Shown piece after piece: positions 17,490-52,915 of a stretch of 64,000 bases of DNA. The translations under genes were made by a program, and so were the position numbers. Each line of letters starts with the position of its first letter. Position 1 is the stretch's first letter. The notes under the pieces were generated by a model. It was not told the origin of the DNA. It worked only from the letters and a program-made list of their open reading frames with translations, and ran no database searches. Source of the DNA: a virus (Duplodnaviria; Heunggongvirae; Uroviricota; Caudoviricetes); the IMG/VR virus record IMGVR_UViG_3300011399_000002, positions 55,871 through 119,870 of that record, one strand, 5' to 3'.

Positions 17490-17565
17490 GGCCCCTTAGC
17501 TCAATGGTTAGAGCATTTGTCTTATACACAAACGGTTCTAGGTTCGAATCCTAGAGGGGCTACCA
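17490..17565 (+). tRNA. tRNA-Ile (anticodon UAU)
   Basis: Manual cloverleaf: acceptor GGCCCCT/AGGGGCT, D GCTC/GAGC, anticodon stem TTTGT/ACAAA loop CTTATAC, T-arm CTAGG-TTCGAAT-CCTAG, encoded CCA. Confidence 0.7.
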
Positions 17566-17675: not shown

Positions 17676-17873
17676 GTGATAATCTTGGCAAACTTCAAGA
17701 GAAAGAAGAAGAAGCAATACTGGCATGTAACTTGTTGCCGTGGTGAAGCAACAAGAATGGGAGGAAACTCGCGGGATAGGTTCCCTGATAAGATGTACCG
17801 TCAACCTCAAATGTATGTTTACAATGAACGTGACCCTGAGAGATACATTCATCAGAAAGTGAAGTACGAATGA
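17676..17873 (+). CDS. hypothetical basic protein
   Basis: 65 aa, KRKKKKQY. Confidence 0.3.
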   Translation: MIILANFKRKKKKQYWHVTCCRGEATRMGGNSRDRFPDKMYRQPQMYVYNERDPERYIHQKVKYE

Positions 17874-18271
17874 AATTCAAAGTCTCTGATATCAATGATG
17901 ACGATCCTGAGATTTGGGTAAGTGTATTCGGGCGCAAGATAAAGACTGCTGCCGATGCATTTGAATTTCTCTATGAGCATCCAAACGCTTATGATCACGA
18001 TGATCAAAATGAATGGGATAAACTCACACTAAAGGATCGCTGGTCTGAGTCTCATGGTCAATTCATTGAACACATGACTCTTAGTGTAAGTAAAAAGGGT
18101 GTTTGGCTAGAGACTGGTCCTATCTATTGGGAAGATCAATTCCCTGATATGTACAAGCCTAGATGGCACACCAATATGCACGATATCCGTCTTGATGTTG
18201 GTGCAAAGACCTTTGAGAAGGCTCTCATTAAACTGGCAAAGAAAGTGAGAAAGTATTACGGTGACTATTAA
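17870..18271 (+). CDS. hypothetical protein
   Basis: 133-aa ORF, ATGA overlap. Confidence 0.45.
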   Translation: MKFKVSDINDDDPEIWVSVFGRKIKTAADAFEFLYEHPNAYDHDDQNEWDKLTLKDRWSESHGQFIEHMTLSVSKKGVWLETGPIYWEDQFPDMYKPRWHTNMHDIRLDVGAKTFEKALIKLAKKVRKYYGDY

Positions 18272-18962
18272 ATATTACAAAGTCGGTGGCGCAGTAAGAG
18301 ATGAAATCCTTGGTGTTAGGTCCAAGGATATTGATTTCGCAGTCGAGGCAGATAGTTACGAGGAAATGCGTGACGATCTTCTCAGTAAGGGCTCAATCAT
18401 TTGGCAGGAGCGCCCTGAATTCTTTGCAATCAGGGCTAAGCATCCAGATTTTGGCCCGGTAGATTTTACCCTATGCAGAAAGGAAGGGTTCTACTCCGAT
18501 AATAGGCATCCCGATAGCGTTGAGATTGGTACGATCTATGATGATCTTGCCCGTCGTGACTTTACAGTCAATGCTATTGCTCTGGATTTTACTGAGACTT
18601 CCTCAACAACATTGATTGATCCTCATGGTGGCGTAATCGACATTTCTAAGAATTTGCTTAGGTGTGTTGGTTCTCCTGAGGAAAGATTTACTGAGGACCC
18701 TCTAAGAATTCTACGTGCAGTTAGATTTCATATTGTGCGCGGGTTTGATCTGGACTTTGATCTAGAGGTAAGTCTTAGTTCTTTCCCTCTAATTGATGGC
18801 TTGAAGAAAATCCCTCTAGAGAGAATTTACGAGGAACTAAACAAGTGCTTTGCTCATGATACTTGGAACACGCTAATGTTCCTTGATAAGCATGAGTACC
18901 TGAAAGATGTAATCTTCCTAGAAATGGGTCTGAAACTGGCCCCAAGAATTAATGGTGACTAA
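18261..18962 (+). CDS. tRNA nucleotidyltransferase (CCA-adding enzyme) head-domain protein
   Basis: Class II polymerase-beta NTase signature GGAVRDEILGVRSKDIDFAV at N-terminus, RDFTVNA; 233 aa. Confidence 0.7.
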   Translation: MTIKYYKVGGAVRDEILGVRSKDIDFAVEADSYEEMRDDLLSKGSIIWQERPEFFAIRAKHPDFGPVDFTLCRKEGFYSDNRHPDSVEIGTIYDDLARRDFTVNAIALDFTETSSTTLIDPHGGVIDISKNLLRCVGSPEERFTEDPLRILRAVRFHIVRGFDLDFDLEVSLSSFPLIDGLKKIPLERIYEELNKCFAHDTWNTLMFLDKHEYLKDVIFLEMGLKLAPRINGD

Positions 18963-19162
18963 TGGTACACGTAGCATTTAGATCAGCAGAAACAGGTCGC
19001 TATCTATTCCATGTAAAATGGCCCGAAGATGAATGGGCTAAGATCGAAGCAGCAGCAGCAGTTATGGGTATCTCTGTTGAAGAGTTTGTCCATCAGGCTA
19101 TTGATGCGTATGCAAAGAAAGTTTTAGGTGACAGTTGGCAACTAGAAACTCCGTCTACCTAA
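18962..19162 (+). CDS. hypothetical protein
   Basis: 66-aa ORF, TAATG overlap. Confidence 0.35.
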   Translation: MVHVAFRSAETGRYLFHVKWPEDEWAKIEAAAAVMGISVEEFVHQAIDAYAKKVLGDSWQLETPST

Positions 19163-19707: not shown

Positions 19708-19920
19708 TTGGAACCTACCGAAATGAAAGAGAAATTTAAACTAGCCACCTATCAAATCTCAATTACTGCCCCTATCTCTTGGAATGATGAGCAAGCAGAG
19801 CATATTCTCAATCAACTAGAGGCTAGGGCCATAGATGAGCAAATCGAAAGTCTACTAGTAGCTACAATCAATGATCTTGATGGTGGCGATATGCTAGAAG
19901 TTATGTGGTCTGCTTCATGA
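19708..19920 (+). CDS. hypothetical protein
   Basis: 70-aa ORF. Confidence 0.35.
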   Translation: MEPTEMKEKFKLATYQISITAPISWNDEQAEHILNQLEARAIDEQIESLLVATINDLDGGDMLEVMWSAS

Positions 19921-20318
19921 GTAGGTACCGCGATCCGTTTGATGTTGCGAAGAAGATAGCGGGTAAGACTGATCCTCAGGTTACTCGTTATCTTCATAGC
20001 AGCGTTATTCTAGACAGAAATGGGAGAATTATTGGAACTGGTGTAAATCATTATGATGGCAAGGTAATCACAGCAGATGATACTGGCTTGCCCCTTGATA
20101 AAAGCATCCATAGTGAAGTCCATGCACTAACAAAGGTAGGTGTAAGGAAGCTACAGGGCGCAACAATCATCAACTATAGTAAGACAAACGTAGCAAGTAA
20201 TCTATCGTATCCTTGCCCAAACTGCTATGCAGTATTGAAGAAGTTGGGCTTTAGGAAACTATTCTATTCGATCCGTAGTGATCTAAACAACACAGTATGG
20301 AATGAGGAAAAATTCTAA
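19905..20318 (+). CDS. CDA-fold deaminase (second deaminase-like gene)
   Basis: HSEVHAL ... PCPNCYAVL zinc motifs, 137 aa. Confidence 0.55.
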   Translation: MVCFMSRYRDPFDVAKKIAGKTDPQVTRYLHSSVILDRNGRIIGTGVNHYDGKVITADDTGLPLDKSIHSEVHALTKVGVRKLQGATIINYSKTNVASNLSYPCPNCYAVLKKLGFRKLFYSIRSDLNNTVWNEEKF

Positions 20319-20666: not shown

Positions 20667-21203
20667 ATGGAAGACCTTCATATCGTTAGGTATTGCGCAG
20701 AGGAGTGCGTTAGGCAGGGAAAGTCTGATCCTATGTCTACGTATGATATGTGTAATGCTTGGGATTACGCTCAGAAGATTAGTCAGCATTGTGTGAATTG
20801 TCTGCCATTTGCAGAGCCGCATGATGTGAAGTACGAGAAGATTAATCTGGATTTTATCGAGCATCTTGGTTCTCTGGTTGAGCCTAAGATGAATAAGAAG
20901 GGATTTCGTACTATCCCAATTGGTATCCGTAGTGGATATGGTTGGATTGAGAAGGCCGCTTGGGAAAGGGTTCCTGAGTTGCTTACTGAACTTATTGCAG
21001 CATACTACGAGGACAGGCTGATGAATATGCAGACCAATCCTCTTAGTAAGAATGCTAATGATGAGTTCTATTTTCACTATGAGGAAATCCATCCATTTCG
21101 GGATGGAAATGGTAGAACTGGAAAGATTTTGTACAATTATCTGAATGGTACGCTAGACAATCCTATCATGCCTCCGAATTTTTGGGGAAGTAGTAATCCC
21201 TGA
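20667..21203 (+). CDS. Fic/Doc family protein
   Basis: Fic core HPFRDGNGRTGK. Confidence 0.7.
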   Translation: MEDLHIVRYCAEECVRQGKSDPMSTYDMCNAWDYAQKISQHCVNCLPFAEPHDVKYEKINLDFIEHLGSLVEPKMNKKGFRTIPIGIRSGYGWIEKAAWERVPELLTELIAAYYEDRLMNMQTNPLSKNANDEFYFHYEEIHPFRDGNGRTGKILYNYLNGTLDNPIMPPNFWGSSNP

Positions 21204-28228: not shown

Positions 28229-28431
28229 GTGCATACTATGAACTCATTAGAACTGAGTTTATCAACTTTGAGTATTCAGGTGAGAGTATTCAAGTTTGTC
28301 TAAATTGTGGTATAGAGATACAGGATGGTGAACGTATTCTAAGAGAAGTATTTAGAGTTATGGGGCATGATGATCATCTAGTATCTCTATGGCATATTCC
28401 TTGTTGGTATAGTGTGGAGACTGTAGAGTGA
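28225..28431 (+). CDS. hypothetical protein
   Basis: 68 aa, ATGA overlap. Confidence 0.4.
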   Translation: MSAYYELIRTEFINFEYSGESIQVCLNCGIEIQDGERILREVFRVMGHDDHLVSLWHIPCWYSVETVE

Positions 28432-29090
28432 AAGAATATCACAAGATTGACTCAGTATATAAGAGAGATGAAAGAGGAAAGTTTCTACTTGGTGAATTCT
28501 CTCGTCCTGAGTTTGAGTATCTAAAAGACCTTCCTTGGCTATGGACAGAGAAGATTGATGGTACTAATATCAGGGTAATGTGGAAGCCTGATGCTGCTTT
28601 TCCTGATGAGCCCTATATTAGTTTTGGAGGTAAGACTGAAAATGCTCAAATTCCCACTAAACTATATAGCCATCTAGCAACAACGTTTGCTCCATTGATG
28701 AATCAACTAATTGATACATTTGGAGAGACAGAAGTTTGTCTTTATGGTGAGGGATATGGAGCAGGAATTCAGAAGGGTGGAGGAAACTACTCTCCTGATC
28801 AAAAATTCATTCTCTTTGATGTAAAGATCGGAGATTGGTGGTTGACTAGGGAGAACGTAGAGGATATTGGGCGTAAGTTAAATATTCCTGTTGTACAACT
28901 AGGTCCACGCTATACTCTTTCTGAGATGATTGAGTATGTTGAACAAACTGCTAGGCTTCTAGAAGGAGCCCCATTTTCTAATATTGGAACAGCAAAAATT
29001 GAGGGTTGGGTAGGAACACCTGCTATTCCTCTATTTGCACGTAATGGTGATCGTATTATTACCAAGGTTAAGTATAGGGACTTTAAGTAA
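28428..29090 (+). CDS. RNA ligase-like nucleotidyltransferase (Rnl2-type)
   Basis: Motif I WTEKIDGTNIRV (KxDGxN), downstream YGEGYGAGIQKGG; size of an Rnl2 adenylyltransferase domain. Confidence 0.55.
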   Translation: MKEYHKIDSVYKRDERGKFLLGEFSRPEFEYLKDLPWLWTEKIDGTNIRVMWKPDAAFPDEPYISFGGKTENAQIPTKLYSHLATTFAPLMNQLIDTFGETEVCLYGEGYGAGIQKGGGNYSPDQKFILFDVKIGDWWLTRENVEDIGRKLNIPVVQLGPRYTLSEMIEYVEQTARLLEGAPFSNIGTAKIEGWVGTPAIPLFARNGDRIITKVKYRDFK

Positions 29091-36315: not shown

Positions 36316-36969
36316 TCAGATTTCATATTTCTCTGTCTCCCACACGATCACTCTCTGTGTAACATTGTGCCTTTCTTTGCCCTCGCCCTTTTCTACCCTG
36401 TCTTCTCCTTCCATGTAGTACCAAGTATTTAGTTTCCAAGGAAGTTTAGTGTTGTTGAAATGTTCTTGTAGGATGGCTGGGGTGAATCCTGTTTTGTGGT
36501 ACTCACCCTCATGCTTTTGATGACCATAAATGATCGCCATATCCCATTTGGTAGTCTGATGCTCCAGCCACCAACGACAGGCCCATTCCAGATCGGGCAC
36601 AACGACCTGCAAGCGGCCACCACGCCTCAGTAATCGGTGCCACTCCCTTAGGGTCGGCACGACTTCAAACCTGCCTACGTGTTCAAGGGCATTCGATGAG
36701 AAGATTGCTTCTACACTACCATCGGGTAGCGGAATATCCCACATCGTTGCTTTGATATCAGCGTTTGTGTGCAAGTCTACTGCTGTAAACTTATCATCAG
36801 AGGATAAGCCACCCGCACCTATATCAAGCATTAGTGGTTGCTTGAATTGAGATGGGTCTAATGTCTTGTGTACAGGTTCAGGGTTTCCATCACTTCCTAT
36901 ATGATAACCGGGGTTGTATTTTGGATCACAGCAATCCTCACAGGTTATGTATCTAGGCTTATCAGCCAT
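36316..36969 (-). CDS. class I SAM-dependent methyltransferase
   Basis: Motif I LMLDIGAGG, motif post-I AVDLHTN, LRRGGRLQVVVPD. Confidence 0.65.
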   Translation of the reverse strand: MADKPRYITCEDCCDPKYNPGYHIGSDGNPEPVHKTLDPSQFKQPLMLDIGAGGLSSDDKFTAVDLHTNADIKATMWDIPLPDGSVEAIFSSNALEHVGRFEVVPTLREWHRLLRRGGRLQVVVPDLEWACRWWLEHQTTKWDMAIIYGHQKHEGEYHKTGFTPAILQEHFNNTKLPWKLNTWYYMEGEDRVEKGEGKERHNVTQRVIVWETEKYEI

Positions 36970-37478
36970 GCCTCAAACTCCTTATTGAAGAGGACTTCTT
37001 CATGACGATTCTTGCGCAGTAAGTGTATGGCATCACGGGCAGTCATTCCCTGCTTCATCAGCGTTCGAACAACAACAAGTGAAGAGCGGTTCATCCCCGC
37101 CTGACAGTGTACCAAAACGTCAAGATTAAGGTCAAGTGCTGCCTTTACCATATCAGAGGCTTCTTCTACGGCTTCTACATTGACATTTGGGCCATCGTAT
37201 AGCCGATATTCCTGTAGGATTGTTCCTGCGGTCGTTTTATAGCGCCCCCAAGGGTAAAGTGACACTACAAGATCGAAGTTATCCCCAAGGTGCAGATTCT
37301 CCACGTATCCTCCATGCCAGAGATTTCCTCTTACATGGGTGATGATTGGAACCGTCGTTGATCGATCACTATTCTCATAATAGAACGTAATGTAGTGATT
37401 AAACGGGTCAGCACCATCTGGTGCGATCCATCCCTCCGTTTTATTGACTGTATTCTCGCCTTGATCTAGTTTAGGCAT
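36945..37478 (-). CDS. CX5R phosphatase (PTP/dual-specificity family)
   Basis: Signature VLVHCQAGMNRSSLVV (HCxxGxxRS P-loop). Confidence 0.6.
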   Translation of the reverse strand: MPKLDQGENTVNKTEGWIAPDGADPFNHYITFYYENSDRSTTVPIITHVRGNLWHGGYVENLHLGDNFDLVVSLYPWGRYKTTAGTILQEYRLYDGPNVNVEAVEEASDMVKAALDLNLDVLVHCQAGMNRSSLVVVRTLMKQGMTARDAIHLLRKNRHEEVLFNKEFEAWLISLDT

Positions 37479-38319
37479 GGGCTTTCTCCCTTATTGCATC
37501 CATCTTTGCTCTCCACTCCGTTGATCGGTCTGTTTTGATATCTTTTAATGGAACGATAACTAACTTTTCATAGCCCCGGTTATTGTCTATGATCGAGTCT
37601 GTTGTCATTACCCAATTGATGTACGTACTGCCTGAGAAAATCTTACCCTCAAATATTGTATTCTCACAGTGGGCGACAACCAGTACGATATTCCTAAAGC
37701 CTAGATCGTGCAGTTTCTCAGCGGCTAGAACGAACGTTCCACCCTTTGAACACAAGTCATCAACAATGATGACCGTATCGCTGGTCTTATTGCCTAGAAT
37801 CTCCAAACTAAGGATTCTACCTGTCGCAAAATCACGCTTTTTGAACCCAACTAGCGAATCAGGCGATTCTAGGCTTTCATAGCGCTTCTGTGCCCCAGCA
37901 TCGGGGAAAAATATCTGCGAACCCGGAAGATGCAGATATTCCTTGAAAAGATGCTCTGTTACGTTCACAACTTGGCATTTGTTGAGAAGGGCAGGAGTTA
38001 CGTCGGAATGAGGCTCGTAAACGACGACCTTGTTCCACTCCATCAAATTGATCAATTTCGTGATCGATTTGAGCGTGAAAATATACTCATCTGAATTACG
38101 ATCCATACGCGAGTAAGGAAAGTAAGTGATGTGTAAATCGGCTGGGAACCAAAGAGCCTTCCTGACTAGAAAAAGTCGGAGTAAATCTTCGTCCCCCTCG
38201 TACTTTAGCGTTACCTTATTTATTGCTTGTTTATGTTCAGAAAAGAAGGGTTTTGGTATATTTACCTCCCCATTGGGGAAATGACCGAATTTTATCTCTT
38301 GATCGTTGAATAGGATCAT
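37471..38319 (-). CDS. ribose-phosphate pyrophosphokinase (PRPP synthetase)-like protein
   Basis: PRTase-type motif VIIVDDLCSKGGTF and Prs N-domain; 282 aa. Confidence 0.75.
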   Translation of the reverse strand: MILFNDQEIKFGHFPNGEVNIPKPFFSEHKQAINKVTLKYEGDEDLLRLFLVRKALWFPADLHITYFPYSRMDRNSDEYIFTLKSITKLINLMEWNKVVVYEPHSDVTPALLNKCQVVNVTEHLFKEYLHLPGSQIFFPDAGAQKRYESLESPDSLVGFKKRDFATGRILSLEILGNKTSDTVIIVDDLCSKGGTFVLAAEKLHDLGFRNIVLVVAHCENTIFEGKIFSGSTYINWVMTTDSIIDNNRGYEKLVIVPLKDIKTDRSTEWRAKMDAIREKAHA

Positions 38320-39800
38320 ATCCGAGCCCTAATTTCCGCTAGTGTGTCTTCACGAACGAGTTTACCGTCAACAAAGAGGTCTTGTAGCAGATCATCCTCT
38401 ACTGCATCGCGCTCTACTTCGGTTAGCCCATCGCGGAAGCCAATTCCCCAAGGGGTCTTCCAAACAGTTACCATGCCTGTTTGGGACTTCTTGATGCCAT
38501 TGTCAGTGATAGGGTCTTTGAATAGGAATTTCTCTTCGCCCGCAATACGAGCGTATGTTGACTTTAGAGCAAAGGAGAAGGTATCGCGTGTGTTGTACTG
38601 ATAGGTGAAGCTACCAATACCGTATACCATGTTCGTTGATGCGAAGCCTTTTGTCTCTAATTGACGGCAAATCTCATCACAACGCTCTAGAGTAATGGCA
38701 TCACCGTAAATAACACCGATATGTGGGTCCAATTCCTTGTAACCCTTCTCATTGACCGTGCCGCCGAAGATATCCCAAAGGATTTCAACAACACCACGAA
38801 CAGCGTCAGGGTTGTCAGAAAGGGGATCGCCACAGATGATCTTGATAGGATCGCCTGAATCTGGTCGAATAACAACCTTACCATCGCGGGCAAGAATGTC
38901 AGGCTTTAGTGTGGCAATTACCCCATTTAGGACTTTCCACAGGTCCCAAGTGTCAGAAACGATGGAAACGTACCCGTTTGGATACACATTTGTTATAATG
39001 TTACGATAAGAGTCTAATTCGTTCTGTCCATATGCGCACATAACAGAATGCTCTGTGGCAGGGATGGAAGTACCGACTAACTCTTCTTCGATATTTGCCC
39101 CATAGAATTCCTCTAGGAACAGGATACCGGGAATAGAGTCGGTACCAACGAATGAGAGCAGGTGTCCTGCTGCACTGTACTTTGCAGTTTGCAGGGAACC
39201 CATTCCACGCATTGAGAAATCATGGCCTTGGAACGGGACAAAATCCTTTGATCCACCAGTCTTAAAAGCCCAGCCCAAAAGAAGGCTCTTAAAACGCTTT
39301 GCCAGTGTCGCACTTGTGCACATTTGCCAAAGCGAACACGACATAAGCGTTTCTATGTAGTTTGTAACCCAAAAGAATTCAGGAAGTGTGTTCTCAACAG
39401 TGAGAAGAGGAGTACGAATTTTAACGCTGGTTCCTTCGGGTACTGCCTTAATTCTGAGGGGCAGGTACCCTAACCTGTGGAGTGCTGCAATGTGATCAGA
39501 GTAAGGCTCTTCAACACCTAACGTTGATCGTATAACCCGCTCATACTCTTCAAGAACGTCCCTTTCAGGACGAGAGAAGAAGTTGTCATTAAAGTAGTCA
39601 ATTAGGTACTCTTTTACAAAGGCTTGGAAGCCGAAGGCAACAACAGAGTCTATATTGGGAATTCGTGAAGCCCTTGGTGTCCAAGTAGAGTATACCTTCT
39701 CTGTACCTTGCGGATATTGCTCCCTGTGTGAAACCTTGTAAAAATCACACAGCAAGGTTGCTGGGTATATATACTTCTCAGTTGTTCTTTGTAGCGTCAT
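38316..39800 (-). CDS. nicotinamide phosphoribosyltransferase (NAMPT/NadV)-like protein
   Basis: 494 aa, NAPRTase-family size and conserved blocks (GSKDFVPFQGHDFSMRGM, PDSGDP). Confidence 0.7.
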   Translation of the reverse strand: MTLQRTTEKYIYPATLLCDFYKVSHREQYPQGTEKVYSTWTPRASRIPNIDSVVAFGFQAFVKEYLIDYFNDNFFSRPERDVLEEYERVIRSTLGVEEPYSDHIAALHRLGYLPLRIKAVPEGTSVKIRTPLLTVENTLPEFFWVTNYIETLMSCSLWQMCTSATLAKRFKSLLLGWAFKTGGSKDFVPFQGHDFSMRGMGSLQTAKYSAAGHLLSFVGTDSIPGILFLEEFYGANIEEELVGTSIPATEHSVMCAYGQNELDSYRNIITNVYPNGYVSIVSDTWDLWKVLNGVIATLKPDILARDGKVVIRPDSGDPIKIICGDPLSDNPDAVRGVVEILWDIFGGTVNEKGYKELDPHIGVIYGDAITLERCDEICRQLETKGFASTNMVYGIGSFTYQYNTRDTFSFALKSTYARIAGEEKFLFKDPITDNGIKKSQTGMVTVWKTPWGIGFRDGLTEVERDAVEDDLLQDLFVDGKLVREDTLAEIRARI

Positions 39801-40126
39801 CGCTTCACCTTCCTTAGTGCTTCATCTGCTTGATTGATTACTGATTCTGATGTGGGGCCATAAAAAGCCAGACCCATTGCCCAAGGCCACTGTATATTGC
39901 TATCGTCTTCAAAATGCTCTAAGGCTGGAGTAGCCTCTAGGGAGTAACGTTCCTCAGGATTTGCAGTAGCAGCCCTGTAAAGGAATAGGTCAGTAAACTC
40001 AGGAAACCGGGGCGCAAGGTCATCAATAGTCAAAGATACTGACTCTTCACCCGTTATATACACCTTTATAACTTCATCACTCACAGTTTTAATTTCTCTA
40101 GTGTATCCATTACAGACTTTGCACAC
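39797..40126 (-). CDS. hypothetical protein
   Basis: 109 aa, ATGA overlap. Confidence 0.4.
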   Translation of the reverse strand: MCKVCNGYTREIKTVSDEVIKVYITGEESVSLTIDDLAPRFPEFTDLFLYRAATANPEERYSLEATPALEHFEDDSNIQWPWAMGLAFYGPTSESVINQADEALRKVKR

Positions 40127-40341
40127 TACTTTACCCCTACTTCGCTTAGACAGTAGACACCGACTTTTACTTCTGCCACCCCTGAACTTCTAACTTCGAT
40201 ACAATCGGGCGCAAAGGTCCAAGGATAGGCTACAACAGAAGTAGGGGGTGGTCTAAAAAACGTAAGTAGCGCAAGCACAATAAAAATAATAACCCCAACG
40301 AGTATAACTACTAGGCAACCCCACAGGCCATCGTCACTCAT
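40126..40341 (-). CDS. small membrane protein
   Basis: LWGCLVVILVGVIIFIVLALLTFF TM helix. Confidence 0.35.
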   Translation of the reverse strand: MSDDGLWGCLVVILVGVIIFIVLALLTFFRPPPTSVVAYPWTFAPDCIEVRSSGVAEVKVGVYCLSEVGVK

Positions 40342-41390
40342 ATATACTCATTTACTCTTGTATGATTCTCAGAGGCAGTTGATGGACTTATACGTATGAA
40401 CTCAGCCCTATCACGTAATTCGGATAAGTTTTCTGCTCCGACGTAAGACATTCCACTTCGTAAGCCTCCCATAAGTTGTTTAAGTACCGCCGATACTGGT
40501 CCTTTGTAATCCACGAATCCAGATATGCCCTCCCTAGTAAAGAGTGCATCATTTGTACCAAATATAGACTGTCCTTGATAACGCTTGACTCTTCGTCCAC
40601 GTCCAGTATCAATAACCTCTCCGGGGGCTTCGTCAGTCCCGGCCAAAAGACTACCTAGCATTACAAGGTCAGCACCGGCTGCTAATGCTTTTACGATATC
40701 TCCTGCGCTTCTTATGCCTCCATCCGCGATAATAGGTATATGGTACTTTCTAGACTCCTGATAGCATTCCGCAATAGCAGATAGTTGCGGTACTCCGATC
40801 CCTGTAACAATTCTTGTTGTGCAGACTGATCCCGGTCCAATTCCGATTTTAATAGCATCCGCTCCTGCTGCAATAAGGTCAACTGTGCCTTCTGCTGTTG
40901 CAACATTACCAGCAACCACTCTGGCTGATGGGAAAAGGTCTTTAACTCTTTTGACAAGATCAATTACCTTTCTATGGTGTCCATGTGCTACATCAACGCA
41001 GACAATATAGGGGGCAAGATTACAGGAACCATCTATATGCCTGATAAAGTCTAGGCTTTCTTTCTGATCCCTTGTACCAACAGAGAATGCTACAGGGTAG
41101 CCCTCTGAGTAAAGGGTCTTAATATCACCTATTTGATCTGCTGGGGGCATGAAACGATTTAATATTCCTAAACCCCCTGCGTTGTGCATGGCGATTGCCA
41201 TTTCACGGCCAGTAACAAAATCCATGTTAGCACTGATGACAGGAATGGACAGATTCAGTCCTAAAAAGTCCTGAGACAGATCGATATCCTGTCTTGACTC
41301 TATTTCTGAATATGCTGGACGTATGAGTACATCATCGAATGTGAAGTAATCTTTCAATTCTAAATCCCTTCTGTTTTTGCATCCATGCAA
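40338..41390 (-). CDS. GMP reductase / IMP dehydrogenase-family enzyme (no CBS insert)
   Basis: Catalytic loop [14 protein letters not shown], 350 aa like GuaC. Confidence 0.75.
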
Positions 41391-42688: not shown

Positions 42689-43198
42689 TTGATCCATGAG
42701 GCCCACATAACCCATGAGCAAGAGGTTTATAAACTATCCCCTATGAAAAAAGACAAAATTATTGACTATTACATATTGGTCTACAAGCCCAGCCATCCAG
42801 CAGTGGTAGGTGACGGATATGTACCAGAGCAGATATTAGTAGCAGAGAGCGAATTAGGACGCTTCCTCTATCCTGATGAATCAGTAAGGCATAAAAACGG
42901 CGATCCCCAAGATAACAGGCCCTCAAACTTAGAGGTTGTATCCGCTAGTCACGGATACAGGTTAGTTAACCTTGGTGACGAGCATATTGAGCCACGCAAG
43001 TCCGCTGGTAAAACTTTTATGCCTTGCAAATTTCAAAAACCGTGCTGGAAAGAAGTTAGAGCGCCTATAGCCCGTGAGCATAAGGTGTATCTTCCGTACA
43101 TATGCAGTTATCAGGAAGGTGGGGACGTTTACAAGTGTTCGCGCTTTTGGAGTTATGTAGATAAAACATTAGTAGAGCAAGGGAGCGATGAAAATTGA
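42689..43198 (+). CDS. HNH homing-endonuclease-like protein
   Basis: RHKNGDPQDNRPSNLEVVSASHG HNH motif; immediately upstream of RNR. Confidence 0.6.
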   Translation: MIHEAHITHEQEVYKLSPMKKDKIIDYYILVYKPSHPAVVGDGYVPEQILVAESELGRFLYPDESVRHKNGDPQDNRPSNLEVVSASHGYRLVNLGDEHIEPRKSAGKTFMPCKFQKPCWKEVRAPIAREHKVYLPYICSYQEGGDVYKCSRFWSYVDKTLVEQGSDEN

Positions 43199-45018
43199 CT
43201 TATAGACCAGAAGGATTAGCGGAGACTATCTTTAAGGAAAGATATACAATCCATCCAGAGGAAACATGGGATGGTGCTAGCCATCGATTAGCAAAACACG
43301 TAGCAAGTGCAGAATTGGACGGTGACAAGGAAAGATACGAAGAACATTTCTATGAAGAGATTGTAACCAACCGATTTATGCCCGGAGGGAGAATATGGTA
43401 TGGAAGTGGTCGTCCTCGCGCTCAGTTGCTTAATTGTTTTGTTGTTCCCACCTCCGATTCTAGAGAAGGCTGGGGAAAGACCATTCATGATGTTATTGTT
43501 GTGTCTGGTATGGGTGGTGGCGTCGGCATTAACTGCTCACCTATCAGACCCCGTGGTAGCCGCATCACTGGGACTGGTGGCGTGGCTACGGGCGCTGTAT
43601 CACTAATGGAAATGATCAATGCTGTGGGTGATGTTCTCGTTGCCGGTGGTGGCAGACGACTAGCACTCATGCTTGATCTAAATATCAGTCACCCTGATAT
43701 GCCAGAGTTTATTGATGCAAAGTTGAACAAGAATAAACTGACCAACGCTAACGTTTCTGTCATCATTGACAAGAAGATTAATTCAGACACTTTCGTTAAT
43801 GCAGTAAAGAATGGGAGCAATCTTCCGCTACAGTTTGGTGGATCAACTCACAAGAACGTAAATGCGAAGGAACTATGGGGTAATATTGTTAACAATGCAT
43901 GGGCATCAGGAGAACCGGGAGTATTAAACGGGGATTTAGCGAACAAAGAGTCTAATATCTGGTATCATAAGCCTCTTATTTCTACTAACCCTTGTGGTGA
44001 AATTTGGTTGGAAGAATACGGTAGTTGTGACCTTGGGGCATTAGTGCTTCCTAGATTTGTCAACGCTTTGGGGCAACTAGATTACGTAGCACTCGCTAAG
44101 ACAATACGTACAGCAGTAAGATTCCTCGATAACGTACTTTCAGTAAATGAGTACCCTCTTCCAGAGATTAGAGAGAACAACGTAAACGTGCGGCGAATCG
44201 GTCTAGGCATCATGGGACTGCATTCCATGTTGATCCAGATGGGATATCGCTACTCATCACAGGCATCTATTAATTTCGTTGATGACCTCATGAATTTCAT
44301 AAAGTATCAAGCCTATCTTGCTTCGATTGACCTAGCAAGAGAGAAGGGATCATTCCCAGCGTTCGACGCTGATCTATTCCTCCAGTCGGGCTTCGTAAAG
44401 CGTGCACTAAACGACGAGATAAAGAACAGCATCAAAGCATTTGGTATTCGTAACTGCGCTCTTCTTACTATTGCCCCAACAGGCACTACTGGAATGGTCA
44501 GTAACGTATCTACTGGTATTGAGCCCTTATTCTCTGCGGCATATTGGCGCAGATTCTACCGACCTACACCGGATGGTAGCAGACAACTAGATAAAGAGTT
44601 GGTTGTTGATCCACTGTGGGATCAAGTTACTGACAAGTCCCTATTGGAAGGTGCATATGATGTTGCTCCTGACTATCATTTTGATATGCAAGTCGCTTGC
44701 CAGAAGCACATCGATAACGCTACTTCAAAGACGATTAACCTGCCCCAATCTTACTCAGTTGAAGTTCTGTCAGACCTATGGCTAGAGTATCTTCCACAGG
44801 TCAAGGGCACGACGTTCTATCGAGCAGGATCAAGGGGAGAGGAACCTCTAGAGGCTATCCCTCTTGAAGAAGCAAAGAGACTTATGAGCGTTAAGAACGC
44901 AGCAAAGCAAGCAACGATTGCTGAACAGAACATGATGGACTGCGTTGGAGATTCTTGTGGCATTCCAGAAGATTTGAAGCCCAAGATAACTGAACAGGTG
45001 ATACAATTTATAAGTTAG
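43195..45018 (+). CDS. ribonucleotide reductase, large monomeric (class II-like) catalytic subunit
   Basis: 607 aa, active-site block STNPCGEIWL, no adjacent beta subunit. Confidence 0.8.
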   Translation: MTYRPEGLAETIFKERYTIHPEETWDGASHRLAKHVASAELDGDKERYEEHFYEEIVTNRFMPGGRIWYGSGRPRAQLLNCFVVPTSDSREGWGKTIHDVIVVSGMGGGVGINCSPIRPRGSRITGTGGVATGAVSLMEMINAVGDVLVAGGGRRLALMLDLNISHPDMPEFIDAKLNKNKLTNANVSVIIDKKINSDTFVNAVKNGSNLPLQFGGSTHKNVNAKELWGNIVNNAWASGEPGVLNGDLANKESNIWYHKPLISTNPCGEIWLEEYGSCDLGALVLPRFVNALGQLDYVALAKTIRTAVRFLDNVLSVNEYPLPEIRENNVNVRRIGLGIMGLHSMLIQMGYRYSSQASINFVDDLMNFIKYQAYLASIDLAREKGSFPAFDADLFLQSGFVKRALNDEIKNSIKAFGIRNCALLTIAPTGTTGMVSNVSTGIEPLFSAAYWRRFYRPTPDGSRQLDKELVVDPLWDQVTDKSLLEGAYDVAPDYHFDMQVACQKHIDNATSKTINLPQSYSVEVLSDLWLEYLPQVKGTTFYRAGSRGEEPLEAIPLEEAKRLMSVKNAAKQATIAEQNMMDCVGDSCGIPEDLKPKITEQVIQFIS

Positions 45019-48462: not shown

Positions 48463-49461
48463 GTGTTAGGGTTTCTAGCGTTTCTAGTCGTAGTGCTTAT
48501 TTTTGGAGCGATTACGGCATTTTTTATCCTCAGACGCTTAAACTATGAGCGTAAGTGGGCAACACTAAATGAATACGGTAATAAAGAAAAGGTAGAGCGT
48601 GATCCGCCTAGCATTGTACCTGCGATTGTTTTTGCAGTCGTTGGGTTTGTCCTAATCATAGGAACAGGCGGAATCAGAGAGATTCCAGCGGGCCACGTAG
48701 GGGTTATTACTTCATTCGGTAGAGTTACCGAAGGAACATTACCATCGGGTCTAACATACGTTATGCCCGTCGTTAATCAGGTTGTCATTCTTGACACCCG
48801 TGTCCAGTCTTACGAATTTACTGACCTACAGGGCGCAACAAGCGATACTCAGGCAGTTACGCTTTCAGGTTCAGTTAACTACCGAATCGATGGAGCAACG
48901 GCTTGGAAGTTGTATCGTGATGTTGGTGAAGACTTTGCAGTCAGAGTTTTCCAGCGTCCAGCAGATACGGCACTAAAGACAATTACACCTAGATATACTG
49001 CTACTGATATCATCGGTAAGCGTGACGAAATTGCTTCATTAGCAACGCAACTTCTCCGTCCATCCGTTGAGCAGTACGGTATCTCTGTAGAGGCATTCTA
49101 TGTCTCTAACATTGGCCTAAATCAAGCATTCCTAAATGCAGTTGAAGCGAAGCAGATTGCTAATCAGCAAGTGCTAACTCAGAAGCAGATTACCGCGCAA
49201 AAGGAAGAGCAGAAGAAGCAAGCAAAGATTGATGCAGAAGGACGAGCAGATGCCGCTAGAGCAGCAGCAAATGGTGAAGCCGATGCAATTCGATCACTAG
49301 CAGATGCACAGGCAGATGCAAACAAGTTGCTAAATAACTCACTAACACCTGAGTTAATTCAGTATACATTGATCAACAAGTTAAGTCCTACGATTAAGAC
49401 TATGATTCTTCCTGATGGACAGAATTTCATCCTTGATCCTAAGGCACTTCTTGGTCAGTAA
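48463..49461 (+). CDS. SPFH/band-7 (stomatin/prohibitin-like) membrane protein
   Basis: N-terminal TM helix then band-7 core and Ala/Gln-rich coiled coil. Confidence 0.7.
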   Translation: MLGFLAFLVVVLIFGAITAFFILRRLNYERKWATLNEYGNKEKVERDPPSIVPAIVFAVVGFVLIIGTGGIREIPAGHVGVITSFGRVTEGTLPSGLTYVMPVVNQVVILDTRVQSYEFTDLQGATSDTQAVTLSGSVNYRIDGATAWKLYRDVGEDFAVRVFQRPADTALKTITPRYTATDIIGKRDEIASLATQLLRPSVEQYGISVEAFYVSNIGLNQAFLNAVEAKQIANQQVLTQKQITAQKEEQKKQAKIDAEGRADAARAAANGEADAIRSLADAQADANKLLNNSLTPELIQYTLINKLSPTIKTMILPDGQNFILDPKALLGQ

Positions 49462-50099: not shown

Positions 50100-50174
50100 G
50101 GCTCCGAACCTAAACGGACAAGGGTCTGTCTGCAAAACAGATTTTAGTGGGTTCGACTCCCACCGGAGTCTCCA
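50100..50174 (+). tRNA. tRNA-Cys (anticodon GCA)
   Basis: 75 nt, acceptor GGCTCCG/CGGAGTC, anticodon stem TCTGT/ACAGA loop CTGCAAA, T-arm GTGGG-TTCGACT-CCCAC, discriminator U, CCA. Confidence 0.65.
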
Positions 50175-50407: not shown

Positions 50408-51937
50408 ATGGCAAGATTAAACGCAACTAAGCGAACAAGGGTTACAGAAACATTAGCAGAGGAAACTACAACTAACCTAGCAGGTGGGAAGGCTTTTAAG
50501 TTAACTCCCCATGCAAAGTTAATTGAACAGGTTGTAGGTGCGTTCTGGAACGAGGATTTGTACTACGCTAAGGGCTCTAAGACTTCCGCACAGATTGTGC
50601 AGGGTGTTAAGGACGTAGCAAAGGATGATCCTAGATTCCCACTACAGCTAGCAGCATACGCTAGAAACGTTCTCTATCTGCGAACAACCCCACAGGTTTT
50701 GCTTGTGGAAGCATCACGTATTGAAGCGTGCAAGCCATTCGTTCGTGAATATACTTCAAAGATTGTAAAGCGAGCAGACGAATTAACTGATATCGTTGCT
50801 TACTACACTTCTACATCAGGCTCACACAAGGGCTTCCCTAACTCTCTAAAGAGAGGACTGGCTGATGCATTCGTGAAGTTTGATGAATACCAGTTAAATA
50901 AGTATGACTCTTCAAAGTCAGTTGTAACACTTGGTCAGGTAGCACAGTTAGTGCACCCAGCGTTGGGTAAGGCTATGTACAACTTCCTCACAAAGGATGA
51001 AGTTGATGCAGAGGCTCTTCCTAAGATTGGGGCTCTAAAGGCTCTATTGGCTAAGGATAAGATTGATGCAGAGGCTATCGAGTTAATCGGTAAGTCAAAT
51101 GTAACTTGGGAAACCCTTATCTCAAAGTTTGGGGCATCCAAGGAAACTTGGGAATTAGTAATTCCTAATATGGGTTATATGGCACTTCTTAGAAACCTAA
51201 GAAACTTCGAACAGAAGGGTGTCAATCTAACTCCTGTATTAGCACGGATTGCAAATCCTGAGGAAGTAAAGCGCTCAAAGCAACTTCCATATCGGTTCTA
51301 TTCTGCTTACCTACAGGTATCAGAACAGAAGGTGCAGCGTGCAATCGCTCAGGCGTTTGAACACAGCATTTCAAATGTCCGACTTGAAGGTCGTACAGCC
51401 GTTATGGTAGACTTGTCTGGAAGCATGGGATCAGCACTATCGGATAAGTCAGCAATGTCCTATCGAAACGTGGGTACCGTGCTTGGAGCCATCGTTGTAA
51501 AGAAGTCAGAGGAATCTGTAGCAATTGGTTTCGGTGATACCGCGCAGATTGCAAAGATCAACCCTGATGACACAATGATGACAAATATTGATAAGATTGA
51601 TAAGTTACCAGTGGGTCACTCAACTAATGCCTATCGAGGCTTCCAAGTCTTGGGCAACAGAGTAGTTGATCGTGTGGTAGTTATCTCTGATATGCAGTGC
51701 TACGGTGGTAACGAATACTACGGTAGTGGCCTATCAAACGCTTGGGATGAATACGTGAAGAACGTAAATCCAAATGCAAGACTCTACTCGCTAGATGTTA
51801 GCGCATATGGATCAAAGCAATTCCCAAGCAGAAAGAACAACGTTGTAACTCTTAACGGCTGGTCAGACAAGATCATCGATATGATTGGTGTCTACGAACG
51901 TGAAGGTGCAATGCTTGATGAGGTTAGAAAGTGGTAG
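50408..51937 (+). CDS. rsr: Ro60 ortholog Rsr (TROVE domain + vWA domain)
   Basis: N-terminal NLAGGKAFKL...VVGAFWNEDLYY matches the Rsr/Ro60 signature (NPAGG...GSxxGTYY), C-terminal vWA with MIDAS VMVDLSGSMGS; 509 aa. Confidence 0.75.
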   Translation: MARLNATKRTRVTETLAEETTTNLAGGKAFKLTPHAKLIEQVVGAFWNEDLYYAKGSKTSAQIVQGVKDVAKDDPRFPLQLAAYARNVLYLRTTPQVLLVEASRIEACKPFVREYTSKIVKRADELTDIVAYYTSTSGSHKGFPNSLKRGLADAFVKFDEYQLNKYDSSKSVVTLGQVAQLVHPALGKAMYNFLTKDEVDAEALPKIGALKALLAKDKIDAEAIELIGKSNVTWETLISKFGASKETWELVIPNMGYMALLRNLRNFEQKGVNLTPVLARIANPEEVKRSKQLPYRFYSAYLQVSEQKVQRAIAQAFEHSISNVRLEGRTAVMVDLSGSMGSALSDKSAMSYRNVGTVLGAIVVKKSEESVAIGFGDTAQIAKINPDDTMMTNIDKIDKLPVGHSTNAYRGFQVLGNRVVDRVVVISDMQCYGGNEYYGSGLSNAWDEYVKNVNPNARLYSLDVSAYGSKQFPSRKNNVVTLNGWSDKIIDMIGVYEREGAMLDEVRKW

Positions 51938-52557: not shown

Positions 52558-52700
52558 GGATAGTGTAGATAACAGTTACTTCTCTTTGGGCGACGTGATG
52601 TGGGTTCGAATCCTACTCTCCCAACAAAATCGATGGGAGATAGCTTAATGGTAAAGCGCGAAAATTTCTGTAGTCGCTTTAATCTTCCTAAAATAGTCAT
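52558..52700 (+). ncRNA. element C: Y-RNA-like RNA with tRNA-like module
   Basis: TAGTGTAGataACAGTTACTTC, then T-arm GTGGG-TTCGAAT-CCTAC, 7-bp loop-capped helix TCTCCCA/TGGGAGA, then D-arm GCTT-AATGGTA-AAGC. Confidence 0.4.
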
Positions 52701-52795: not shown

Positions 52796-52915
52796 TCTTT
52801 AGTGTAGTGTTTGTTACGGTTCCTTCGATAAATGTATATCAATTGACTTCAAATCAATCTTTGTAGGTTCAAGTCCTACAGGAATAATGTCCGTAGCGCC
52901 TCTATCCTCACTAAT
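52796..52915 (+). ncRNA. element D: Y-RNA-like RNA enclosing a tRNA-like cloverleaf (anticodon-position UCA)
   Basis: TTAGTGTAG pairs with CTA(tcct)CACTAA ~95 nt downstream; enclosed 52818-52887 folds as acceptor GGTTCCT/AGGAATA, D GATA/TATC, ATTGA-CTTCAAA-TCAAT, T-arm GTAGG-TTCAAGT-CCTAC, no CCA. Confidence 0.4.

What the first reader, a model, noticed from the sequence alone, without database searches (positions are those of the whole stretch)
18261..18962. Phage-encoded CCA-adding-type nucleotidyltransferase
The N-terminus has the exact class II tRNA nucleotidyltransferase / poly(A) polymerase head motif GGAVRDxxLGxxxxDxDF. At 233 aa it is only head and neck, so it may be a minimal CCA or A-adding enzyme. 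Nearly all tRNAs here encode CCA, so the enzyme may instead repair nicked CCA ends (host anticodon or CCA nucleases) or mature the CCA-less tRNA-like/Y-RNA-like elements.
Basis: partly seen in the sequence, partly recalled or inferred. Interest (0 to 1): 0.55.

Follow-up and report, generated by a model that had tools for sequence, protein, structure and literature searches.

The report
Short phage tRNA CCA-adding enzyme
This phage gene encodes a half-length version of the enzyme that builds or repairs the CCA end of tRNAs; it belongs to a large, already annotated family of phage proteins, so it is real but fairly ordinary.

Summary
ORF 18261-18962 (+, GTG start, 233 aa) carries the quoted motif GGAVRDEILGVRSKDIDF exactly. 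It matches Pfam PF01743 (E 8e-24), and its confident model superposes on the head and neck of solved class II CCA- and A-adding enzymes.

All catalytic elements are present: motifs A-E, the B/A motif and a full-length flexible loop. The tRNA-binding body and tail are missing and are not encoded elsewhere in the window.

The short form is the rule for a virus-specific clade. All 80 viral loci examined and nearly all metagenomic relatives are about 225-260 aa. The nearest cellular relatives are at most 43% identical and mostly 400-500 aa. GenBank phages already annotate such genes as tRNA nucleotidyltransferase (PHROG 24229, e.g. Atuin gp178).

Across the family, the gene often sits beside tRNA clusters or an RNA ligase plus polynucleotide kinase cassette. 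Here, 10 of 11 tRNA-like genes already encode CCA. Repair or upkeep of tRNA 3' ends during infection is therefore the most likely role.

The enzyme's activity, its nucleotide specificity and how it binds tRNA without body and tail are untested. I found no biochemical study of a short phage enzyme.

Verdict: new member of a known kind, modest interest.

The parts
18261..18962 (+). Gene for a 233-aa class II nucleotidyltransferase made of head and neck domains only. GTG start; the TAA stop is included in the coordinates.
   Evidence: ORF list. PF01743 E 8e-24. PHROG 24229/2244. Model pLDDT 94.1. Foldseek top hits 6qxn, 1miv, 4wc2. Same gene call in public assemblies.
18285..18338 (+). Motif A, GGAVRDEILGVRSKDIDF, with the two metal-binding carboxylates D23 and D25.
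   Evidence: Sequence. G9, G10, R13, D14, D23 and D25 are invariant in 26 family members.
18408..18440 (+). Beta-turn region, ERPEFFAIRAK (residues 50-60), between the third and fourth strands of the model. The short viral clade has the consensus E.PEF.T where cellular enzymes have tG..hGT.
   Evidence: Strands E46-51 and E56-61 in the model. Clade consensus comparison. The beta-turn's role in positioning the primer 3' end is taken from PMC7730189.
18459..18467 (+). VDF (residues 67-69), carrying the third catalytic carboxylate D68. The aligned position is E in cellular relatives.
   Evidence: D68 is invariant. Alignment to IEV in 6ibp and LEF in 1vfg. Consensus comparison.
18477..18551 (+). 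Basic/acidic motif RKE (73-75) followed by the flexible-loop segment GFYSDNRHPDSVEIGTIYDDLA (76-97). The loop is full length, not deleted.
   Evidence: The spacing from the B/A motif to RRD is 22 residues in all scored short members, against a median of 23 in cellular enzymes. The segment YSDNRHPDSVE aligns with YSDNRRPDSVE of the Planococcus CCA-adding enzyme.
18552..18575 (+). Motif B, RRDFTVNA.
   Evidence: R98, R99, D100 and N104 are invariant. RRD is present in 78 of 78 viral relatives scored.
18618..18641 (+). Motif C, DPHGGVID.
   Evidence: D120, P121, G124 and D127 are invariant. It aligns with DPFGGKED of 6ibp.
18693..18728 (+). Motif D, EDPLRILRAVRF: the EDxxR amino-acid template that selects CTP or ATP.
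   Evidence: E145, D146, R149, R152, R155 and F156 are invariant. The role of EDxxR is taken from PMC8563995.
18819..18845 (+). Motif E region, ERIYEELNK, in the neck.
   Evidence: R188 and E192 are invariant. It aligns with ERLKSEIDK of 6ibp. Weak PF12627 hit over residues 179-203.
17490..17565 (+). tRNA-Ile (UAU) with encoded CCA, 0.7 kb upstream on the same strand. It is context and a likely substrate class, not part of the gene.
   Evidence: ARAGORN. Rfam 74.2 bits. 3' end ...GCTACCA.
52818..52887 (+). tRNA-like gene with anticodon UCA, a G1-A72 mismatch and no encoded CCA. It is the only tRNA-like gene in the window that would need CCA added. Candidate substrate, inferred only.
   Evidence: ARAGORN. 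Rfam tRNA 49.1 bits. Sequence followed by TGT.

Best explanation
The gene encodes a stand-alone catalytic core (head plus neck) of a class II tRNA nucleotidyltransferase. It belongs to a virus-specific clade of short enzymes.

Shown here: the fold, and every catalytic element known from CCA-adding enzymes. These are the three carboxylates D23, D25 and D68, motif B (RRD), motif C, the EDxxR nucleotide template, motif E, the B/A motif and a full-length flexible loop.

Inferred: the enzyme uses CTP and ATP to rebuild missing C, C or A residues on tRNA 3' ends without a template. Ten of the 11 tRNA-like genes in this window already encode CCA. Its main job in this phage is therefore probably upkeep and repair of tRNA 3' ends during infection, against exonucleolytic trimming or host nucleases that attack the CCA tail, and not first-time synthesis. 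It could also complete the one CCA-less tRNA-like gene.

Not explained: how it holds tRNA without the body and tail domains. The only core element that differs consistently from cellular enzymes is the beta-turn region that positions the primer 3' end. It may bind only the acceptor end, with low affinity and broad substrate range.
For: Family membership and fold.

Catalytic residues are invariant across 26 relatives that share 50-69% identity with the query. The motifs are present in nearly all of the 78 viral relatives scored.

The loop length is that of CCA- and A-adding enzymes, not the shortened CC-adding type. The PAP I signature is absent.

NCBIfam scores are highest for CCA tRNA nucleotidyltransferase models (131.5 and 121.1 bits), ahead of pcnB (97.6) and the A-adding model (62.5).

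The length is conserved. All 80 viral loci stop soon after the neck, and the top 120 and top 150 metagenomic relatives are almost all 222-290 aa. All 88 short sequences form one NJ clade that excludes the 73 cellular enzymes and the two full-length phage enzymes.

Gene context in the family: 14 of 68 unique viral loci have tRNA genes within 6 kb, and 54 of those 72 tRNAs lack encoded CCA. Twenty-two of 68 have an RNA ligase and/or polynucleotide kinase homolog within 6 kb, often directly adjacent. Examples are Atuin (RNA ligase gp173, PNK gp175, NTase gp178), an HD-kinase fusion in L030, and S-CBWM1, where the gene abuts 12 tRNA genes.

In this window a tRNA lies 0.7 kb upstream and an RNA-ligase-like ORF lies at 28428-29090.

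Literature: CCA-adding enzymes are listed among the RNA-repair genes of jumbo phages (PMC7824862). Cas12a3 immunity cleaves tRNA 3' CCA tails (PMC13594972).
Against: No activity has been measured for any short viral member, as far as the searchable literature shows.

The body and tail, described as the tRNA-binding site of class II enzymes (PMC8563995; PMC7730189), are absent and are not supplied by another ORF in the window.

The protein is acidic (pI 4.9), and its beta-turn is not enriched in basic residues. A compensating RNA-binding surface is therefore not evident.

In this phage and its four closest relatives the gene is not next to RNA ligase or PNK.

Scores against the full-length NCBIfam equivalog models are all below their cut-offs.
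Confidence: 0.65

Rival explanations
1. It is an A-adding (or otherwise partial) repair enzyme. It restores only the terminal A on tRNA-CC, the residue most often lost, and leaves full CCA synthesis to the host enzyme.
For: The A. aeolicus A-adding enzyme is among the best sequence and fold matches (1vfg/4wbz E about 5e-23; 4wc2 TM 0.77). Ten of 11 tRNA-like genes here encode CCA, so only end repair is needed. The flexible loop needed for A addition is intact.
Against: The NCBIfam A-adding model scores well below the CCA models (62.5 against 131.5 bits). Relatives with 51-59% identity sit in clusters of tRNA genes that lack CCA altogether (L001, L007), which argues for full CCA synthesis in the family. 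To my knowledge (not checked here), restriction to A addition has been attributed to the C-terminal region, which this protein lacks.
Confidence: 0.15
2. It is a promiscuous RNA 3'-tailing enzyme. Without the tRNA-measuring body and tail it adds short C/A or A tails to many RNAs, such as host mRNAs, rRNA fragments or Y-RNA/tRNA-like RNAs, as part of host takeover or RNA turnover.
For: The tRNA-binding domains are absent. A 182-aa phage protein resembling CCA-adding enzymes, fHe-Kpn01 Gp22, is toxic when expressed in E. coli (PMC7291057). The same phage encodes Ro60 and a possible Y-RNA-like element.
Against: The PAP I signature is absent in all 26 aligned and all 80 viral members. The flexible loop, which is dispensable in PAP but needed for CCA addition (PMC2532741 abstract), is strictly conserved in length. 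Family context is tRNA genes and tRNA-repair genes. I did not test whether Gp22 is related to this clade.
Confidence: 0.1
3. Its dedicated role is to add CCA to the single CCA-less tRNA-like gene (anticodon UCA, 52818-52887) or to the neighbouring Y-RNA-like element.
For: 52818-52887 is the only tRNA-like gene in the window without CCA. It lies beside a Ro60 gene and a subthreshold YrlA match.
Against: The two loci are 34 kb apart. The family is found in many phages irrespective of such elements, and with either all-CCA or no-CCA tRNA sets. The host's own enzyme could serve one RNA. I did not examine whether Ro60 co-occurs with the short enzyme.
Confidence: 0.05
4. It is the nucleotidyltransferase half of a toxin-antitoxin-like pair with the overlapping downstream 66-aa ribbon-helix-helix protein (borderline TacA-like).
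For: The stop and start codons overlap (TAATG). The 66-aa protein hits Pfam TacA1 at 23.5 bits against a cut-off of 21.
Against: The enzyme belongs to PF01743, not to the MNT or DUF1814/MenT families, and has no PADLOC hit. The RHH protein matches only Arc and ParG in the PDB, at E about 1.4. It is not adjacent to the enzyme gene in any of 80 viral loci or four close relatives.
Confidence: 0.02
5. It is a truncated, decaying remnant of a full-length enzyme.
For: It is half the usual length.
Against: The same length recurs in all 80 viral loci and in nearly all of the listed metagenomic cluster representatives. Forty-two columns are invariant, including all catalytic residues. The model is confident throughout.
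Confidence: 0.02

Closest known systems
Short phage tRNA nucleotidyltransferases (PHROG 24229): Arthrobacter phage Atuin gp178, Synechococcus phage B23 gp209, Synechococcus phage S-CBWM1 gp018
   Same: The lengths are alike (about 243-248 aa) and so is the head-plus-neck architecture. They align over 97-98% of the query at 36-46% identity. They fall in the same NJ clade and are annotated as tRNA nucleotidyltransferase.
   Different: No GenBank phage protein is more than 46% identical, and there is no DNA-level match. In Atuin the gene follows RNA ligase and PNK; in S-CBWM1 it abuts a tRNA cluster. Here it sits among small unknown genes, a deaminase and a Fic protein, with one tRNA upstream.
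Bacterial class II CCA-adding enzymes (Planococcus halocryophilus 6QY6/6IBP, Geobacillus stearothermophilus 1MIV)
   Same: Same fold for head and neck (TM about 0.72-0.76 normalised to the query, 31-34% identity), motifs A-E, the B/A motif and the flexible loop. The loop segment YSDNR(H/R)PDSVE is nearly identical.
   Different: It lacks the body and tail, about 170-200 residues that form the tRNA-binding site. The beta-turn region reads E.PEF.T where cellular enzymes have tG..hGT. The third carboxylate is D, not E.
Aquifex aeolicus A-adding enzyme (1VFG, 4WC2)
   Same: Comparable sequence and fold similarity over head and neck (E about 5e-23; TM 0.73-0.77).
   Different: That enzyme has a body and tail and acts only on tRNA-CC. 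The NCBIfam A-adding model scores lower than the CCA models for this protein.
E. coli poly(A) polymerase I (3AQK/3AQL)
   Same: Same superfamily and fold; shares the EDxxR template.
   Different: The PAP I signature [LIV][LIV]G[RK][RK]Fx[LIV]h[HLQ][LIV] is absent, and the pcnB model scores lower.
Full-length phage tRNA nucleotidyltransferases (PHROG 2244; Cronobacter phage CR9 gp217, Aeromonas phage 65 ST65p392)
   Same: Phage-encoded class II enzymes, 35-38% identical over the N-terminal part (query residues 2-207 for CR9, 3-224 for phage 65).
   Different: They are annotated at 348-399 aa and so have a C-terminal part. They fall outside the short clade in the NJ tree.

Membership tests
Class II nucleotidyltransferases (tRNA NTase / poly(A) polymerase, Pfam PF01743) | Head-domain profile match above the curated threshold | tested here: met
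   84.8 bits against a cut-off of 23, E 8e-24, residues 6-134 covering profile positions 2-126 of 126.
Class II nucleotidyltransferases (tRNA NTase / poly(A) polymerase, Pfam PF01743) | Motif A GGxVRD...DxD plus a third carboxylate | tested here: met
   GGAVRDEILGVRSKDIDF at residues 9-26 and D68. All are invariant in the family alignment.
Class II nucleotidyltransferases (tRNA NTase / poly(A) polymerase, Pfam PF01743) | Head-plus-neck fold of solved members | tested here: met
   Model pLDDT 94.1. The top 46 Foldseek PDB hits are all class II CCA-adding, A-adding or PAP enzymes, with probability 1.00.
CCA-adding enzymes (class II) | Motifs B (RRD), C, D (EDxxR) and E | tested here: met
   RRDFTVNA, DPHGGVID, EDPLRILRAVRF and ERIYEELNK, with invariant key residues.
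CCA-adding enzymes (class II) | Flexible loop between the B/A motif and motif B, of normal length (needed for A addition) | tested here: met
   The spacing is 22 residues, against a median of 23 in cellular full-length enzymes. The loop's role is taken from PMC8563995 and PMC7730189.
CCA-adding enzymes (class II) | Body and tail domains that bind the tRNA T-arm/elbow | tested here: not met
   The protein ends after the neck. A body-plus-tail profile built from 68 cellular enzymes finds nothing in any frame of the window (best E 2.6) and hits none of the 78 viral short proteins scored.
CCA-adding enzymes (class II) | NCBIfam equivalog score for CCA tRNA nucleotidyltransferase | tested here: not met
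   131.5 bits against a cut-off of 290 (NF009814), and 121.1 against 438.8 (TIGR02692). The shortfall is expected for a half-length protein.
CCA-adding enzymes (class II) | Template-independent addition of C, C, A to tRNA 3' ends | not testable with these tools
   Needs an enzyme assay. I found no published assay of a short viral member.
CC-adding enzymes | Deletion or shortening of the flexible loop (from my own knowledge of the literature, not read here) | tested here: not met
   The loop spacing is not reduced.
Bacterial poly(A) polymerase I | Signature [LIV][LIV]G[RK][RK]Fx[LIV]h[HLQ][LIV] (quoted in PMC13514080) | tested here: not met
   The regular expression is absent from the query, from all 26 aligned relatives and from all 80 viral relatives.
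Short phage tRNA nucleotidyltransferases (PHROG 24229) | Near full-length match to the 245-position profile, with comparable protein length | tested here: met
   E 9.2e-44; residues 1-212 cover profile positions 2-220 of 245. It sits in one clade with 87 other short viral sequences.
Toxin-antitoxin or defence nucleotidyltransferases (MNT, MenT/AbiEii) | Match to those families' profiles, and a conserved partner gene | tested here: not met
   No such Pfam hit and no PADLOC hit. The downstream RHH gene is not conserved next to the enzyme gene.

The most novel reading that the evidence does not exclude
The short viral clade may be a naturally minimal CCA-adding enzyme that counts C-C-A without anchoring the tRNA elbow on a body and tail, using a remodelled beta-turn region. 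It may serve as a broad counter-defence enzyme that rebuilds tRNA 3' ends removed by CCA-targeting immune nucleases such as Cas12a3, working alongside phage RNA ligase and kinase-phosphatase repair enzymes.
Probability: 0.2. Interest if true: 0.55.

Novelty: new member of a known kind. Interest (0 to 1): 0.3.

Why it matters
For this phage, the gene adds one more piece to a visible investment in translation and RNA upkeep: 11 tRNA-like genes, a Ro60 homolog and an RNA-ligase-like gene.

More generally, the short viral clade is large. About 323 clusters at 50% identity match with E <= 1e-30. It is strongly conserved and often sits next to tRNA-repair genes, yet no member seems to have been characterised biochemically.

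Because it lacks the domains thought to hold the tRNA, it is a convenient natural test of two questions. One is how much of CCA counting resides in the head and neck alone. The other is whether phages use CCA rebuilding to escape immune systems that cut tRNA tails. The gene in this window is not special within that clade.

Tried and rejected
- **DNA-level relatives.** A megablast of 3.5 kb around the gene against GenBank phages found nothing. The DNA polymerase is at most about 30% identical to any GenBank phage, so neither host nor taxon could be assigned.
- **Split gene.** A profile of cellular body-plus-tail regions found nothing in six frames of the window. In 80 viral loci it found only an HD-kinase ORF in L030 and an unexplained weak hit in L064.
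- **Conserved partner genes.** None of eight neighbouring proteins has a homolog in the 80 viral loci. In four closer relatives only the deaminase and Fic genes recur nearby, and the RHH gene is not adjacent.
- **Toxin-antitoxin reading.** Rejected.
- **PAP I and CC-adding readings.** Rejected on signature and loop length.
- **Charge as a sign of compensating RNA binding.** Short enzymes are acidic (median pI 5.8) and differ little from cellular ones (6.1), so this was uninformative.
- **Long 'fusion' proteins.** Proteins of 600-2200 aa that contain the module carry unrelated GNAT or topoisomerase domains. They look like run-on gene calls, not informative fusions.
- **Atuin-type RNA ligase and PNK.** tblastn with the complete genes against the window found no hit. 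A different, minimal RNA-ligase-like ORF turned up only through PHROGs.
- **Promoter and terminator scan.** Nothing above shuffled expectation.
- **Literature.** Searches for a biochemical study of a phage CCA-adding enzyme found none.
Full report
**1. The observation**

The window has an ORF at 18261..18962 on the + strand. It is 233 aa long with a GTG start. The start overlaps the last 11 nt of the upstream 133-aa ORF (17870..18271). The stop overlaps the ATG of a downstream 66-aa ORF (TAATG). Two public assemblies call exactly the same 233-aa product.

The statistics are unambiguous:

- Pfam PF01743 (PolyA_pol head) E 8e-24, over the whole 126-position profile.
- PHROG 2244 E 2e-49 and PHROG 24229 E 9e-44, both labelled tRNA nucleotidyltransferase.
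- NCBIfam best hits are CCA tRNA nucleotidyltransferase models. All fall below the full-length cut-offs.
- PDB best hits are the Planococcus CCA-adding enzyme (E 6e-27), the Aquifex A-adding enzyme, the Geobacillus CCA-adding enzyme and E. coli PAP.

**2. Anatomy**

An AlphaFold model built on 26 relatives is confident (pLDDT 94.1, pTM 0.87). Its 46 significant PDB matches are all class II CCA-adding, A-adding or poly(A) polymerase structures. TM-scores are 0.62-0.78 when normalised to the query but only 0.34-0.51 when normalised to the targets. The protein therefore corresponds to about half of those enzymes. Sequence alignments end at about residue 220-250 of chains that are 390-420 residues long.

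According to PMC8563995, the head and neck hold the catalytic core (motifs A-E and the flexible loop), and the body and tail form the tRNA-binding site. Every core element is present and invariant or nearly so in the family:

- D23, D25 and D68, the three carboxylates.
- R73-K74-E75, the B/A motif.
- A 22-residue segment up to R98-R99-D100 (motif B).
- DPHGGVID (motif C).
- EDPLRILRAVRF (motif D, the EDxxR template).
- ERIYEELNK (motif E).

The spacing from the B/A motif to RRD is 22 in all short members scored, against a median of 23 in cellular enzymes. There is therefore no loop deletion of the kind I recall for CC-adding enzymes. The PAP I signature quoted in PMC13514080 is absent from the query and from all 106 relatives tested.

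**3. The short form is the viral norm**

- The 120 best matches in the 5.8-billion-protein collection are 189-257 aa, and all but one are at least 222 aa.
- The 150 best cluster representatives are almost all 215-290 aa. There are 323 representatives with E <= 1e-30.
- In all 80 viral-contig loci retrieved, the reading frame stops soon after the end of the alignment.
- The 80 best loci from one-genome-per-species bacterial and archaeal genomes are at most 43% identical. Nearly all continue for 170-300 residues beyond the aligned part, giving proteins of about 400-500 aa.

I built a neighbour-joining tree on 207 head-plus-neck columns. It placed all 88 short sequences in one clade, with none of the 73 cellular sequences and neither of two full-length phage enzymes. 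The tree has no bootstrap, and the sample was chosen by similarity to the query.

A profile of cellular body-plus-tail regions finds nothing in any frame of the 64-kb window (best E 2.6). The enzyme is therefore not split into two genes here.

The clearest clade-specific change lies in the beta-turn region between the third and fourth strands. Cellular enzymes have the consensus tG..hGT and the short clade has E.PEF.T. In addition, the third carboxylate is D, not E. PMC7730189 describes this beta-turn as the element that positions the primer 3' end. It can be adapted to strengthen tRNA binding when T-arm contacts are missing. In the viral clade, however, the turn is not basic, and the whole protein is acidic (pI 4.9). 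I cannot say that it compensates for the missing domains.

**4. Context in this phage**

The gene lies in a + strand run of small genes. Upstream are tRNA-Ile(UAU) at 17490-17565 and a 133-aa protein of unknown function. Downstream are:

- a 66-aa ribbon-helix-helix protein,
- a 143-aa unknown,
- a cytidine/dCMP deaminase-like protein,
- a Fic-domain protein,
- an HNH endonuclease.

None of these neighbours is found beside the enzyme gene in the 80 viral loci. In four closer relatives (62-65% identity) only the deaminase and Fic genes recur nearby.

The window holds 11 tRNA-like genes, and 10 of them encode CCA. The exception is 52818-52887, which has anticodon UCA and a G1-A72 mismatch and is followed by TGT. 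It lies next to a Ro60 (TROVE plus vWA) gene and a subthreshold YrlA match. An RNA-ligase-like ORF with a KIDG motif lies at 28428-29090. Its PDB support is weak (T4 Rnl2, E 0.12).

**5. Context in the family**

This is the most informative evidence for function.

- Among 68 unique viral loci, 14 have tRNA genes within 6 kb of the enzyme gene. Of the 72 tRNAs in all 15 such loci, 54 lack encoded CCA. For example, in L001 (enzyme 59% identical) none of nine tRNAs has CCA. In others, such as L023 and L024, all have it.
- Twenty-two of 68 have a homolog of Atuin RNA ligase and/or polynucleotide kinase within 6 kb. These usually lie in the order ligase, kinase, enzyme, or with the kinase directly downstream.
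- In the cultured Arthrobacter phage Atuin, the order is RNA ligase gp173, PNK gp175, tRNA nucleotidyltransferase gp178.
- L030 has an HD-plus-kinase fusion protein 3 kb downstream.
- In Synechococcus phage S-CBWM1, the gene follows a metallophosphoesterase and precedes 12 tRNA genes.

Half of the unique loci (33 of 68) have either tRNA genes or repair genes nearby. I have no matched control for how often this would happen by chance. The repeated tight adjacency and consistent gene order argue against coincidence.

**6. Mechanism**

Shown: the protein has the fold, the metal ligands, the nucleotide-selecting template and the specificity-switch loop of a CCA-adding enzyme.

Inferred: it adds missing C and A residues to tRNA 3' ends. 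Almost all tRNAs in this phage encode CCA, so the likely role is repair and upkeep during infection. In relatives whose tRNA genes lack CCA, it may carry out the first synthesis.

A counter-defence role is plausible. Phage RNA-repair genes, including CCA-adding enzymes, have been discussed in that light (PMC7824862). An immune system that cuts tRNA CCA tails is now known (Cas12a3; PMC13594972).

Open: how the enzyme binds tRNA and stops after three nucleotides without a body and tail.

The rivals are A-only addition, promiscuous tailing, a dedicated role on the CCA-less tRNA-like gene, a toxin-antitoxin pair, and a decaying remnant. They are weighed in their own section. The last two are effectively excluded.

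**7. Comparison with what is known, and novelty**

Phage tRNA nucleotidyltransferases are well known at the level of annotation:

- 506 GenBank phage records hold a homolog, and 455 of them cover at least 80% of the query.
- PHROG 24229 is a 245-position model of the short form.
- The genes are mentioned in reviews and genome papers.
- Full-length phage versions also exist: CR9 at 399 aa and Aeromonas phage 65 at 348 aa.

I found no biochemical study of a short viral enzyme in the searchable library. A distantly similar 182-aa podophage protein is toxic in E. coli, but I did not test its relation to this clade.

The gene here is therefore a new, divergent member of a known kind, at most 46% identical to any GenBank phage protein. 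Interest is modest. It rests on the uncharacterised enzymology of the clade and not on anything peculiar to this copy.

Noticed in passing
window 18962-19162 (+): A 66-aa ribbon-helix-helix protein whose ATG overlaps the enzyme's stop codon. It has a borderline Pfam TacA1 (antitoxin) hit at 23.5 bits against a cut-off of 21, and only Arc/ParG-level similarity in the PDB. It is not adjacent to the enzyme gene in relatives; one homolog lies 6.5 kb away in L081.
   Followed up: yes
window 20667-21203 (+): A Fic-domain protein with the motif HPFRDGNGRTGK. It hits PADLOC candidate-defence models (PDC-S04, SoFic). A 48%-identical homolog lies 3 kb upstream of the enzyme gene in relative L165. Its target and role are unknown.
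   Followed up: partly
window 19905-20318 (+): A small cytidine/dCMP deaminase-like protein (PF00383, E 2.9e-8). Homologs with 54-58% identity lie near the enzyme gene in relatives L165 and L166.
   Followed up: partly
window 50408-51937 (+), 52596-52657 (+), 52818-52887 (+): A Ro60 homolog (TROVE plus Ro60 vWA domains), followed by a subthreshold YrlA Y-RNA-like match (27 bits against a gathering score of 69). After that comes a tRNA-like gene with anticodon UCA, a G1-A72 mismatch and no encoded CCA. This may be a phage Ro60/Y-RNA module, or an opal-suppressor tRNA.
   Followed up: partly
window 50100-50171 (+): A tRNA found by Rfam (50.5 bits) but missed by ARAGORN. It is followed by CCA. 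I did not determine its anticodon.
   Followed up: no
window 28428-29090 (+): A 220-aa ORF matching PHROG 548 'RNA ligase' (E 2e-19), with a ligase-type KIDG motif. It is shorter than the 341-position profile, and PDB similarity to T4 RNA ligase 2 is only marginal (E 0.12). It may be a minimal RNA ligase.
   Followed up: partly
window 36945-41390 (-), 43195-45018 (+), 48463-49461 (+), 57113-57730 (+): Auxiliary metabolism genes: nicotinamide phosphoribosyltransferase, ribose-phosphate pyrophosphokinase, a dual-specificity phosphatase-like protein, a dehydrogenase, the ribonucleotide reductase large subunit, ThyX and an SPFH/band-7 protein.
   Followed up: no
L001 4835-12222; L007 1196-11569: In relatives, the tRNA genes clustered around the short enzyme gene lack CCA. 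In the ARAGORN calls nearly all end in C, mostly as AC or TC. L007 also carries a tRNA with anticodon CUA (amber suppressor, called Pyl), which hints at stop-codon recoding in that phage.
   Followed up: no
proteins P0218, P0227, P0234 (1433-2190 aa): Very long predicted proteins contain the short enzyme module together with GNAT acetyltransferase domains, and in one case a topoisomerase I domain. They are most likely run-on gene calls in phages with reassigned stop codons, not true fusions.
   Followed up: partly
L030 9541-10680: An HD phosphohydrolase fused to a P-loop kinase (AAA_33) lies 3 kb downstream of a short enzyme gene, with an RNA-ligase-like hit just after it. This is an RNA end-healing and sealing set beside the CCA enzyme.
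   Followed up: partly
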